From the NCBI RefSeq assembly GCF_041886205.1, contig NZ_CP169029.1: a DNA stretch of 64,000 bases; one strand, given 5' to 3'. The notes under the pieces were generated by a model. It saw only the letters and a list, made by a program, of their open reading frames with translations. It was not told where the DNA came from and searched no databases. This document shows positions 40,037 through 41,871 of the stretch, one piece after another. Numbering within the stretch: the stretch's first letter is position 1; every line of letters starts with the position of its first letter. Origin of the DNA: Escherichia coli (GTDB lineage: Bacteria; Pseudomonadota; Gammaproteobacteria; Enterobacterales; Enterobacteriaceae). The translations under genes and the position numbers were made by a program.

Positions 40037-41701
40037 TCAGTTATCACGACGCACCGCCATCGAAACCGTAAAAATACCCCACTCATCAATCCGTTGTGTG
40101 CATTTATCAAATCCGGCATCACGCACGAGTGAATCCATCTCCTCTTGCGAACGCACGCGCATGACCCACGGTTTACCATCTTTATGACTGGTTAACACCC
40201 CGGCAATCAGCTCCAGTTGTGGGTGCCACCGCTGCCCGGTGTAGATGAGAATGCCGCCCGGTTCGATGGCATTGGCAAGACCTGCGAGTGAGTTTTTTAC
40301 CTGCTCATTTTCGGGAAAAAGCTCATACAGGCCAGAGACAATCGCCAGCGTAGGCCGCGGAGTTAACGCGCTGAGTTCCTCCGGGTTAAACGCATCGCCC
40401 TGTTCAAAACGCACCCGCCCAGACATTCCCCGTTGAGCAATCATCTCTTGCCCCTGTGCAACATTTAACTCGCTGTAATCACGTAACAAAATATCGCTTA
40501 CGGCAGGCTCGTTTGCCAGTGCATCCAGTACATAGCGCCCATGCCCTGCGGCAATGTCAACCACGCGGACGGCTAAACCTTTGGCGTGGAGATCGGCAAC
40601 GGCTTGTTTAATCAGTATTTGTAAATGGGTTTTGCGCTGGCGAATACCGCGCCAGCCAACACTGTTCAGGTAGATTTTGTCGATTAAGCGCCCGAATGCG
40701 TTACTGCCTTGCGGTTGATTTTGATAGACATAATCCAGCGAACTGCCTGAATCAAAGCCAGTGCTCATTCCGAGATGCAGGCCCGCAGAGTGCGCCCCGA
40801 ACAATTTCATCGCCTTTCGCATAAAGCGATACGCCAAATCAACCGGCGATAATGGCACGGGTCCACCAGAAAGGAGCCGCCATCGATCCGCTGATGGTCC
40901 TGTGCGGTCTTCATGCTGATAATCAAATTTTTGCGACTTGTTAGCATATAAACGACTAATAAAGCTTTGCATTTTTTCAAATGCCTGCGCCCTGTTCTCT
41001 TCACCCAACGTGTCGTGATAAAAGCCTGGCAGCAGATGCAGCTCTTTCAGAGGGCTACGTAATCTCTGATAAAAATCAATCTGCGGTTGACGATGCACCA
41101 CATAGTCATCGCCTGATATCAGAAGTTGCGTGGGGAGCGTAATCGCCGCCGCATCGCTAACAATACGTTCAGACGTTTTATAGAGATCGAGCAAGATATT
41201 GACGGCAATCGCCCGTGTGATCAGCGGATCATTATTGAAACTCGCCACCCGTTGCCGATCGTGGGTCAAATAGCGTCCTTTCACATAGGAATTAATAAAA
41301 AACAGACCACGCAGACGATGCCATAACGCCAGCGCAGGACGTGCCAGCGGCACATACAATTTAACCTTAAAGGCCGGAGAAGCCAGCACCAGCCCGCGAA
41401 TTGCAGGCGCATAATCATGAACCCAAGTTGCAACCAGCACTGCGCCGACGCTTTGCGCGATCACAACCACCTCTTCCAGTCCGACATGGCTGTCGCTGGC
41501 AGCAAAACGGATAAAAATCACGATGGGCAATAGCATAAAGAGGATGGGTTGTGACACCAACATCAACAGCAATCCGGTAAGAAGAGAAAGCGCCAGTGCA
41601 GCAAGAGTGATGTGATTCGCTGTAACGTGGTGATTATAAAGCCAAAACATCGTCGGCCTTAACAGCGACTGAAAGAGCGGTTTTATCTGGTAGAGCGTCA
41701 T
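40037..41701 (-). CDS. ynbC: YnbC-like alpha/beta-hydrolase plus SAM-methyltransferase protein with atypical transmembrane N-terminus (possible ynbA'-'ynbC fusion)
   Basis: ORF 40037..41707 (TTG), ATG at 41701; aa 1-70 hydrophobic, nucleophile-elbow-like AQSVG at ~aa 84-88, methyltransferase motif [11 protein letters not shown] in C-terminal half. Confidence 0.6.
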
Positions 41702-41871
41702 TATCAATCCTTGATAATTCGGTTTGCGCTATGGTGCATCAATTCCCCTGACGGAGATATCGCAACACGCCGCTTCATTAAAAATTCAGAATATATCAAG
41801 GTATTGGGGACTCACTGCCAGGAATGATTATCCCCAATTAATCAAATGGTTAAGAAACATTACGTTGTGGA

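What the first reader, a model, noticed from the sequence alone, without database searches (positions are those of the whole stretch)
40037..41871. ynbA and ynbB appear deleted, leaving a chimeric ynbC-like ORF with a membrane N-terminus
I recall K-12 carrying ynbA-ynbB-ynbC-ynbD between ydbD and azoR. Here only 164 bp separate ydbD from a 554-556-codon ORF, and a stop lies immediately upstream of its TTG/ATG start. Its first ~70 residues are strongly hydrophobic and resemble the N-terminus of a CDP-alcohol phosphatidyltransferase (…[18 protein letters not shown]…), joined straight onto the mid-part of an alpha/beta hydrolase at the AQSVG nucleophile elbow, followed by a methyltransferase domain. 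This is what an in-frame ~1.5 kb deletion from within ynbA to within ynbC would produce; it removes ynbB and the hydrolase's N-terminal oxyanion region.
Basis: inference. Interest (0 to 1): 0.6.

Follow-up and report, generated by a model that had tools for sequence, protein, structure and literature searches.

The report
In-frame ynbA–ynbC deletion remnant
This E. coli strain has lost 1,610 bases of the non-essential ynbABCD lipid operon, which fuses the start of ynbA in frame to the back of ynbC; about 3.5% of complete E. coli genomes carry the same deletion, and RefSeq already annotates it as gene fragments, so it is ordinary gene decay.

Summary
The minus-strand ORF 40037..41701 (554 codons) is YnbA residues 1-65 joined in frame to YnbC residues 97-585. 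Compared with K-12, exactly 1,610 bp are missing: the 3' two-thirds of ynbA, all of ynbB, and the first 96 codons of ynbC. The breakpoint lies in a 9-nt repeat, TTTATCCGT in ynbA and TTTGTCCGT in ynbC.

The fusion keeps two N-terminal hydrophobic helices, a truncated hydrolase and a complete methyltransferase domain. The hydrolase remnant retains Ser84, Asp199 and His229. It has lost the oxyanion loop and Pfam model positions 1-70. The CDP-alcohol transferase motif is gone. ynbD downstream is intact.

The identical junction occurs in 192 of 5,426 complete E. coli genomes. PGAP annotates it as two pseudogene fragments. The exact 554-aa protein is already in GenBank, on 325 contigs.

One intact genome (Z1323CEC0014) is identical to the commonest deletion allele across all retained bases. 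It carries a perfect 9/9 repeat at both ends and is probably the progenitor haplotype. The junction sits in at least three flanking haplotypes. I could not decide whether it arose once and spread by recombination or arose more than once. Two carriers have further frameshifts in the ORF. Verdict: a real, already catalogued loss-of-function deletion of low interest.

The parts
40037..41701 (-). Chimeric ORF of 554 codons plus stop: YnbA 1-65 fused in frame to YnbC 97-585. An alternative in-frame TTG lies at 41707.
   Evidence: ORF list and translation. Alignment to K-12. The exact protein is in public databases.
41516..41701 (-). ynbA-derived 5' part (codons 1-62). It encodes the N-terminal amphipathic stretch and two hydrophobic helices, roughly residues 28-49 and 51-68. 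The catalytic CDP-alcohol transferase motif, which starts at residue 69 in K-12 YnbA, is absent.
   Evidence: Alignment to K-12 ynbA. Hydropathy. Motif position from the alignment to mycobacterial PIP synthases. No CDP-OH_P_transf Pfam hit.
41507..41515 (-). Deletion junction: the single retained copy of the 9-nt repeat TTTATCCGT (coding strand), encoding F63-I64-R65.
   Evidence: The two BLAST blocks overlap here by 9 nt. Intact genomes carry TTTATCCGT in ynbA and TTTGTCCGT in ynbC, 1,610 bp apart. Z1323CEC0014 carries TTTATCCGT at both sites.
40997..41494 (-). Truncated alpha/beta-hydrolase remnant (fusion residues 70-235). Ser84 (AQSVG), Asp199 and His229 are kept. The oxyanion loop and the N-terminal part of the fold are missing.
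   Evidence: Pfam Hydrolase_4 model positions 71-238 of 239, E=1e-41. Triad mapped through the alignment to M. tuberculosis monoglyceride lipase 6EIC. Numbering.
40049..40972 (-). Complete class I SAM-dependent methyltransferase domain (fusion residues 244-551).
   Evidence: Pfam Methyltransf_20, 1-309 of 309, E=9.2e-152. Methyltransf_25 and Methyltransf_31 also match.
41702..41871 (-). ynbA upstream intergenic region containing the promoter and ribosome-binding site. It has 5 substitutions in 170 nt against K-12, and the last 78 nt before the ATG are identical.
   Evidence: Pairwise comparison. In K-12 this promoter is activated by BglJ-RcsB (PMC3950696). The sigma-70 consensus scan found no site.
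38731..40047 (-). ynbD (PAP2/dual-specificity phosphatase), intact at 438 codons. Its GTG start overlaps the end of the fusion ORF by 11 nt, as in K-12.
   Evidence: Translation has no internal stop and differs from K-12 YnbD at 11 residues. Annotated intact in the identical strain XJ5.2.

Best explanation
This is a loss-of-function deletion allele of the non-essential ynbABCD operon. An illegitimate, repeat-mediated deletion between two copies of a 9-nt direct repeat removed 1,610 bp. One copy lies in ynbA codons 63-65 and the other in ynbC codons 94-96. The likely mechanism is replication slippage or RecA-independent recombination. The event most probably happened in a rare haplotype where the repeat is perfect (TTTATCCGT at both sites), as still seen in the intact genome Z1323CEC0014.

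Because the deletion happens to be in frame, it leaves one open chimeric ORF. That ORF has the first two transmembrane helices of YnbA, a hydrolase stump lacking its oxyanion loop and N-terminal part, and an intact methyltransferase domain. The YnbA transferase and the YnbB cytidylyltransferase activities are abolished. The YnbC hydrolase is almost certainly dead.

Shown directly: the deletion and its breakpoints, the repeat, the domain losses, the population frequency and the secondary frameshifts. Inferred: the slippage mechanism, the loss of enzymatic activity, and that the allele arose once and then moved between backgrounds by homologous recombination.
For: - Breakpoints and frame.
- One repeat copy is retained in all nine fetched carrier loci, which have identical anchor spacing, whereas seven intact genomes have the extra 1,610 bp.
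- Z1323CEC0014 is intact and has 0 differences from the commonest deletion allele over all 1,665 retained nt. It carries a perfect 9/9 repeat at both ends.
- Domain losses.
- PGAP labels the two halves as incomplete pseudogene fragments in every carrier fetched.
- 192 of 5,426 complete genomes carry the junction, and roughly 820 genomes lack the locus altogether.
- Two carriers have additional frameshifts that truncate the fusion at codon 194 (E275a) or 137 (VE-T9).
- Neighbouring genes also decay. ydbD has an internal stop in the window, and ydbD or ynbD are frameshifted or stopped in other strains.
- A ynbB knockout grows normally with an unchanged MPIase level (PMC6362211).
- Evidence for recombination: F1053 is identical to K-12 outside roughly window 39,300-44,500 but diverges inside that tract, which contains the deletion.
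- Alleles G2 and G3 share a 219-nt identical tract across the junction, including SNPs (ORF nt 315A, 368T) otherwise seen only in Z1323CEC0014.
Against: - The ORF is open in all five distinct carrier alleles examined at full length.
- Carrier-specific substitutions are not enriched for nonsynonymous changes (15 N: 15 S) relative to intact alleles (43 N: 49 S). Sequence decay of the fusion is therefore not demonstrable, and retained function of the methyltransferase part is not excluded.
- The single-origin sub-claim is weak for the window's own allele group (G1). G1 shares only 22 nt across the junction with the other groups, and its ynbC flank equals that of intact strain ST536.
- No expression or enzymatic data exist for the fusion.
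Confidence: 0.85

Rival explanations
1. The fusion is a working new protein. A two-helix membrane anchor taken from YnbA tethers the intact YnbC methyltransferase domain to the cytoplasmic face of the inner membrane. There it still acts together with YnbD, and selection keeps the in-frame ORF open.
For: - The methyltransferase domain is complete.
- The promoter, ribosome-binding site and the overlap with the ynbD start are preserved.
- The ORF is open in five divergent alleles.
- The topology is plausible. In CDP-alcohol transferases the N-terminus and the end of TM2 face the cytoplasm (family knowledge; aligned region), so the methyltransferase would be cytoplasmic.
- 192 genomes keep the allele.
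Against: - The upstream steps of the presumed pathway (YnbB, YnbA) are gone, so the natural substrate is probably not made.
- The attached hydrolase stump lacks the first 70 of 239 Pfam model positions and is likely to misfold.
- Two carriers have frameshifts that remove the methyltransferase domain.
- One carrier also has a stop in ynbD (ET201).
- The N:S ratio equals that of intact alleles, which is itself high at about 1:1, so there is no special constraint.
- An open frame is expected anyway for a young in-frame deletion.
Confidence: 0.07
2. The same deletion arose independently several times at this repeat (a deletion hotspot), once in each flanking haplotype (G1, G2, G3), rather than arising once and spreading by recombination.
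For: - Each carrier group has an intact look-alike for at least one flank. G3 equals Z1323CEC0014 on both flanks, the G2 ynbA side equals MB07011, and the G1 ynbC side equals ST536 and 67-1.
- G1 shares only 22 nt across the junction with G2 and G3.
- A perfect 9-nt repeat exists in at least one intact haplotype and would predispose to repeated loss.
Against: - The repeat is unremarkable. The K-12 ynbA-ynbC region holds 44 exact 9-mer pairs, nine 10-mer pairs and 959 pairs of 9-mers with at most one mismatch. Re-use of this one pair by chance is therefore improbable.
- G2 and G3 share rare SNPs right next to the junction.
- The G1 ynbA remnant carries private changes (K23N, L62I) found in none of about 4,000 intact genomes, while its ynbC flank is nearly identical to an intact strain. 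That asymmetry fits later replacement of the flank.
- A recombinant tract around the deletion is directly visible in F1053.
Confidence: 0.3
3. The short form is ancestral, and K-12-type genomes gained the 1.6-kb segment by insertion.
For: None beyond the formal symmetry of an indel.
Against: - The long form gives three complete genes with full-length domains, whereas the short form truncates two domains.
- All divergent lineages sampled (UTI89, O157:H7, K_EC180, EH41) have the long form.
- About 4,000 genomes carry intact ynbA, against 192 with the junction.
Confidence: 0.01

Closest known systems
E. coli K-12 ynbABCD operon (b1408-b1411): YnbA CDP-alcohol phosphatidyltransferase, YnbB CdsA paralogue, YnbC hydrolase/methyltransferase, YnbD PAP2/dual-specificity phosphatase
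   Same: Same chromosomal position between ydbD and azoR. About 98% nucleotide identity in the retained parts. Same upstream region, same ynbA start codon, and the same overlap with the ynbD start.
   Different: 1,610 bp are missing. ynbB is absent, ynbA is reduced to codons 1-65, and ynbC lacks codons 1-96. The two remnants are read as one ORF.
RefSeq/PGAP pseudogene pair 'CDP-alcohol phosphatidyltransferase family protein, missing C-terminus' plus 'class I SAM-dependent methyltransferase family protein, missing N-terminus' (e.g. KFQ11_RS11920 and KFQ11_RS11915 in strain XJ5.2; also UMNK88, NCTC9080), and GenBank proteins such as EET4968029.1
   Same: Identical sequence. XJ5.2 is 100% identical over 2,101 bp. 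The exact 554-aa protein occurs on 325 contigs.
   Different: None in sequence. The databases either split it into two fragments or name it simply 'hydrolase' or 'bifunctional alpha/beta hydrolase/class I SAM-dependent methyltransferase', without noting the ynbA-derived N-terminus.
Monoglyceride lipases of the Hydrolase_4 family (M. tuberculosis Rv0183, PDB 6EIC; human MGLL, 3HJU)
   Same: The retained part aligns through the nucleophile elbow, the acid and the histidine. YnbC S115/D230/H260 align with Rv0183 S110/D226/H256.
   Different: The segment aligned to the first ~90 residues of the lipase, including the HG oxyanion loop, is deleted. The fold cannot be complete.
Short-direct-repeat (microhomology) deletions in bacterial genomes that produce in-frame gene fusions
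   Same: Direct repeats flank the lost segment in intact alleles, and one copy remains at the junction.
   Different: Nothing unusual. The repeat is 9 nt, perfect in one haplotype and 8 of 9 in the others.

Membership tests
CDP-alcohol phosphatidyltransferase (Pfam PF01066; YnbA / PIP-synthase-like) | Signature motif D(x)2DG(x)2AR(x)8G(x)3D(x)3D on TM2-TM3 | tested here: not met
   The fusion keeps only YnbA residues 1-65. In K-12 YnbA the motif region starts at residue 69 (NALDGMLAR...), as aligned to mycobacterial PIP synthases. There is no PF01066 hit on the fusion.
CDP-alcohol phosphatidyltransferase (Pfam PF01066; YnbA / PIP-synthase-like) | Six-transmembrane-helix core | tested here: not met
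   There is only one hydrophobic block (residues ~28-68), enough for two helices, and nothing hydrophobic beyond residue 100.
Alpha/beta hydrolase, Hydrolase_4 / monoglyceride-lipase-like (Pfam PF12146) | Catalytic triad: nucleophile Ser in a GxSxG-type elbow, Asp and His | tested here: met
   AQSVG with Ser84, Asp199 and His229 in the fusion. These are YnbC S115/D230/H260, aligned to Rv0183 S110/D226/H256.
Alpha/beta hydrolase, Hydrolase_4 / monoglyceride-lipase-like (Pfam PF12146) | Oxyanion-hole loop (HG motif after strand beta3) and a complete central sheet | tested here: not met
   YnbC residues 1-96, including HRGHEH (40-45), are deleted. The Pfam match starts at model position 71 of 239.
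Class I SAM-dependent methyltransferase (Pfam PF12147 Methyltransf_20) | Full-length domain match | tested here: met
   Residues 244-551 match model positions 1-309 of 309, E=9.2e-152. The glycine-rich stretch VDIAAGHG is visible in the translation. Activity was not tested.
Phosphatidate cytidylyltransferase YnbB (CdsA paralogue) | Presence of the gene | tested here: not met
   The whole ynbB coding sequence lies inside the missing 1,610 bp.
Repeat-mediated (microhomology) deletion | Direct repeats at both ends of the lost segment in the intact allele, with a single copy at the junction | tested here: met
   The repeats are TTTATCCGT and TTTGTCCGT, 1,610 bp apart, in eight intact genomes and a perfect TTTATCCGT pair in Z1323CEC0014. 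All nine fetched carrier loci and the window have a single TTTATCCGT.
Pseudogene by NCBI PGAP criteria | Flagged as incomplete, frameshifted or internally stopped relative to family models | tested here: met
   Both halves are flagged 'incomplete; partial in the middle of a contig' in all nine fetched carrier loci, and two are additionally flagged 'frameshifted'.

The most novel reading that the evidence does not exclude
The in-frame fusion is not junk. It would be a naturally occurring membrane-tethered methyltransferase that kept or gained a role with YnbD after loss of YnbA and YnbB, which would explain why the frame is open in divergent alleles in about 3.5% of E. coli genomes. A second, weaker novelty would be that the perfect 9-nt repeat makes this a recurrent deletion hotspot.
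Probability: 0.07. Interest if true: 0.4.

Novelty: already known. Interest (0 to 1): 0.12.

Why it matters
It matters little in itself. It is one more example of decay in a variable, non-essential region of the E. coli chromosome.

It has three practical uses.
- Annotation: GenBank entries that call the 554-aa product a 'hydrolase' or 'bifunctional hydrolase/methyltransferase' hide the fact that it is a chimera lacking catalytic parts.
- Natural mutants: about 190 sequenced strains are natural ynbA/ynbB nulls. They could serve as ready-made material for work on YnbB's back-up role in MPIase glycolipid synthesis, or on the unknown product of the ynb operon.
- Population genetics: the locus offers a tidy case of a deletion with a candidate progenitor haplotype (a perfect 9-nt repeat) and visible recombination around it.

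Tried and rejected
1. Selection test. I counted nonsynonymous and synonymous changes private to carriers (15:15) and private to intact alleles (43:49). There is no difference, so the test says nothing about whether the fusion is maintained. Many 'private' carrier SNPs later proved to come from rare intact haplotypes.

2. A deletion-specific marker. I first took ynbA position -21A (L56M), shared by groups G1 and G2, as a mark of common descent. A search for it in a K-12-like intact context found no perfect match. The intact genome MB07011 does carry it, however, so I withdrew the argument.

3. 'Repair' origin of Z1323CEC0014. I considered that this intact genome might be a deletion allele repaired by recombination, because its middle 1.6 kb is almost identical to K-12 (2 differences). 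I rejected this. The crossover on the ynbC side would have to lie upstream of the A in the 9-mer, where recipient and donor share only 3 nt.

4. Promoter and terminator consensus scan of 41600-41950: nothing found.

5. NCBIfam: no family reaches E<=1e-5 for the fusion.

6. Cluster look-up. It confirmed the protein is public but placed it in a 90% cluster represented by YdbD, which is uninformative.

7. Literature. Searches for ynbA, ynbB, ynbC, ynbD and ynbABCD found nothing that describes this deletion.

8. Assembly artefact. Rejected, because the same junction is present in 192 independent complete genomes.

Full report
**What is there**

On the minus strand, an ORF runs from ATG 41701 to the stop at 40037, giving 554 codons. 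An in-frame TTG lies two codons upstream at 41707. It sits between ydbD (stop at 41872) and ynbD (GTG start at 40047, overlapping the ORF's end by 11 nt), with azoR and hrpA beyond.

In K-12 the same interval holds ydbD-ynbA-ynbB-ynbC-ynbD-azoR. BLAST of the window against that K-12 locus gives two collinear blocks of about 97.8% identity. Window 38000-41515 matches L001 3098-6616, and window 41507-44000 matches L001 8218-10711. The blocks overlap by 9 nt, and 1,610 bp of K-12 are absent.

The deletion runs from ynbA codon 66 to ynbC codon 96 and removes all of ynbB. The reading frames match, so the product is YnbA 1-65 joined to YnbC 97-585. Only small details needed adjusting:
- The deletion is 1,610 bp rather than about 1.5 kb.
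- The junction lies 18 residues before the nucleophile serine rather than at the elbow.
- The nearest upstream in-frame stop is eight codons above the TTG.

**The junction**

On the coding strand, K-12 ynbA reads ...CTT TTT ATC CGT|ATG GCG... and ynbC reads ...GAA TTT GTC CGT|TTT GCT.... The window reads ...ATT TTT ATC CGT TTT GCT....

The lost segment is thus bounded by a 9-nt direct repeat, TTTATCCGT and TTTGTCCGT. Eight of nine positions match and five (TCCGT) match contiguously. One copy remains at 41507-41515.

**What the product keeps and loses**

- **YnbA part.** The N-terminal 65 residues are the only strongly hydrophobic stretch, enough for two helices at about residues 28-68. YnbA's closest solved relatives are mycobacterial phosphatidylinositol-phosphate synthases. 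In that alignment the catalytic motif region starts at YnbA residue 69, just past the junction. Pfam finds no CDP-alcohol transferase domain in the fusion.
- **Hydrolase part.** It matches Pfam Hydrolase_4 only from model position 71 to 238 of 239. Alignment of K-12 YnbC to M. tuberculosis monoglyceride lipase (6EIC) places YnbC S115/D230/H260 on the lipase triad S110/D226/H256. It places YnbC 37-45 (VLFHRGHEH) on the HG oxyanion loop. In the fusion, Ser84, Asp199 and His229 remain, but the oxyanion loop and everything before it are gone.
- **Methyltransferase part.** The domain is complete (Methyltransf_20, 1-309 of 309, E=9e-152).
- **Flanking elements.** The 170-nt upstream region differs from K-12 at five positions, and its last 78 nt are identical. 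ynbD is intact.

**How common it is, and whether it is known**

Three searches of 5,426 complete E. coli genomes each find 192-193 genomes in which one match spans the junction. About 4,600 genomes have the locus, and about 820 have no match at all.

All nine fetched carrier loci have the same anchor spacing as the window, and all seven intact genomes tested have the extra 1,610 bp. In every carrier fetched, PGAP annotates two adjacent pseudogene fragments: a 'CDP-alcohol phosphatidyltransferase family protein, missing C-terminus', and a 'class I SAM-dependent methyltransferase family protein, missing N-terminus' (in one carrier, LB858871, named 'bifunctional alpha/beta hydrolase/class I SAM-dependent methyltransferase').

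Strain XJ5.2 is 100% identical to the window over 2.1 kb. Well-known strains such as UMNK88 and NCTC9080 carry the junction. The exact 554-aa protein is in GenBank under several accessions and occurs on 325 contigs, named 'hydrolase' or 'bifunctional alpha/beta hydrolase/class I SAM-dependent methyltransferase'. The sequence is therefore already public and already flagged. Literature searches found no paper that discusses it.

**Origin**

Carriers fall into at least three flanking haplotypes:

| Group | Members fetched | Approximate number of genomes |
|---|---|---|
| G1 | window, XJ5.2, ET201 | about 17 |
| G2 | F1053, CP53 | at least 43 |
| G3 | LB858871, rl0044, UMNK88 | at least 60 |

The key finding concerns one intact genome, Z1323CEC0014. 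It is identical to G3 at all 1,665 retained positions and shares the G3 YdbD, YnbD and AzoR proteins. It carries TTTATCCGT at both ends of the 1,610-bp segment, a perfect 9/9 repeat, whereas every other intact genome examined has TTTGTCCGT in ynbC. This is the expected progenitor configuration.

I considered the reverse possibility, that Z1323CEC0014 is a deletion allele repaired by recombination. That would need a crossover in only 3 nt of homology, so I rejected it.

The relations among the groups are as follows.
- **G2 and G3** share a 219-nt identical tract across the junction. It includes ORF positions 315A and 368T, otherwise seen only in Z1323CEC0014.
- **F1053 (G2)** is identical to K-12 from hrpA to about 39,300 and again beyond about 44,500, but differs by 1-4% in between. 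The deletion therefore sits in a tract exchanged by recombination.
- **G1**, the window's own group, is less clear. It shares only 22 nt across the junction with G2 and G3. Its ynbC side equals the intact strains ST536 and 67-1. Its ynbA remnant carries K23N and L62I, which none of about 4,000 intact genomes has (best intact match 5 mismatches in 235 nt).

That asymmetry in G1 fits an older deletion allele whose ynbC flank was later replaced right up to the heterology. An independent second deletion is not excluded.

Against recurrence, the repeat is not exceptional. The K-12 ynbA-ynbC region contains 44 exact 9-mer pairs and 959 pairs of 9-mers with at most one mismatch.

**Function**

YnbB is a CdsA paralogue. 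A ynbB knockout grows normally with an unchanged MPIase level, and the authors call its effect marginal or auxiliary (PMC6362211). The ynbA promoter is activated by BglJ-RcsB (PMC3950696). The surrounding region is a described zone of genomic heterogeneity (PMC4951805).

Loss of YnbA and YnbB leaves the methyltransferase and YnbD without the upstream steps of whatever lipid pathway the operon encodes. That last point is an inference from the domain content.

Further decay is visible at the locus:
- E275a has a 1-nt deletion outside any homopolymer that truncates the fusion at codon 194.
- VE-T9 has an extra T in a T6 run, truncating the fusion at codon 137.
- ET201 has a stop in ynbD.
- ydbD is stopped or frameshifted in the window and in several other carriers.

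Against decay, the ORF is open in all five distinct full-length alleles examined. The ratio of nonsynonymous to synonymous carrier-private changes (15:15) equals that of intact alleles (43:49). That test is uninformative, partly because recombination imports pre-filtered variation.

A functional, membrane-tethered methyltransferase cannot be excluded. I give it about 7%.

**Verdict**

It is an ordinary, already catalogued loss-of-function deletion in a dispensable operon. The modest points of interest are the candidate progenitor haplotype with a perfect 9-nt repeat, the clear recombination around the deletion, and the availability of about 190 natural ynbA/ynbB-null strains.

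Noticed in passing
window 41872..44178 (-), stop codon at 43564..43566: ydbD (DUF2773 'bactofilin') is a pseudogene here. Codon 205 is TAG where K-12 has TGG (Trp), which splits the gene into ORFs of 206 and 544 codons. PGAP flags 'internal stop' in the identical strain XJ5.2. Other strains have ydbD frameshifted (F1053, CP53, ET201, EH41), cut by IS1 (2017.17.01CC) or absent (67-1, UTI89).
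   Followed up: partly
window 45311..51196 (-): An intact 1,961-codon autotransporter ORF lies next to pdxI (ydbC), at the position of ydbA, which is an IS-disrupted pseudogene in K-12 (PMC4951805). Other deletion carriers (F1053, LB858871, rl0044) lack it and have paaY next to pdxI. The window diverges completely from them beyond about 45,300.
   Followed up: partly
L001 (K-12) 7807..8412, YnbA residues 69-98: In the alignment to mycobacterial PIP synthases, K-12 YnbA has Asn where the CDP-alcohol transferase motif has its first and third aspartates (N69 and N90; NALDG...GAILNETGD against FDMLDG...GAVLDATCD). The intact enzyme may be atypical or weakly active. YnbA's best NCBIfam hits, all below cut-off, are archaetidylinositol-phosphate and PIP synthases.
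   Followed up: no
L019 (Z1323CEC0014) 2347..3242: The one intact genome with the perfect 9/9 repeat has a 1-nt deletion in ynbB (CCCGGG to CCCGG), annotated as frameshifted. Its 1.6-kb middle segment otherwise differs from K-12 at a single base, although its flanks are of the G3 type.
   Followed up: partly
L014 (strain F11) 4138..5703: This is a different, larger decay of the same locus. An IS3 element abuts a 321-bp ynbC remnant, and everything from there to inside tynA is missing. ynbD is also frameshifted or stopped in strains with intact ynbABC (K_EC180, EH41).
   Followed up: no
(protein cluster look-up for window 40040..41701): The exact fusion protein is filed in a 90%-identity cluster of 8,466 members whose representative and named members are 768-aa YdbD proteins, which are unrelated in sequence. 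This looks like a clustering artefact in the collection.
   Followed up: no
window 38731..40179 (-): The mechanical ORF for ynbD extends to an ATG at 40179 (482 codons), but the annotated start is the GTG at 40047 (438 codons). Some RefSeq records instead use a start 24 nt further downstream (1,293-nt CDS).
   Followed up: no
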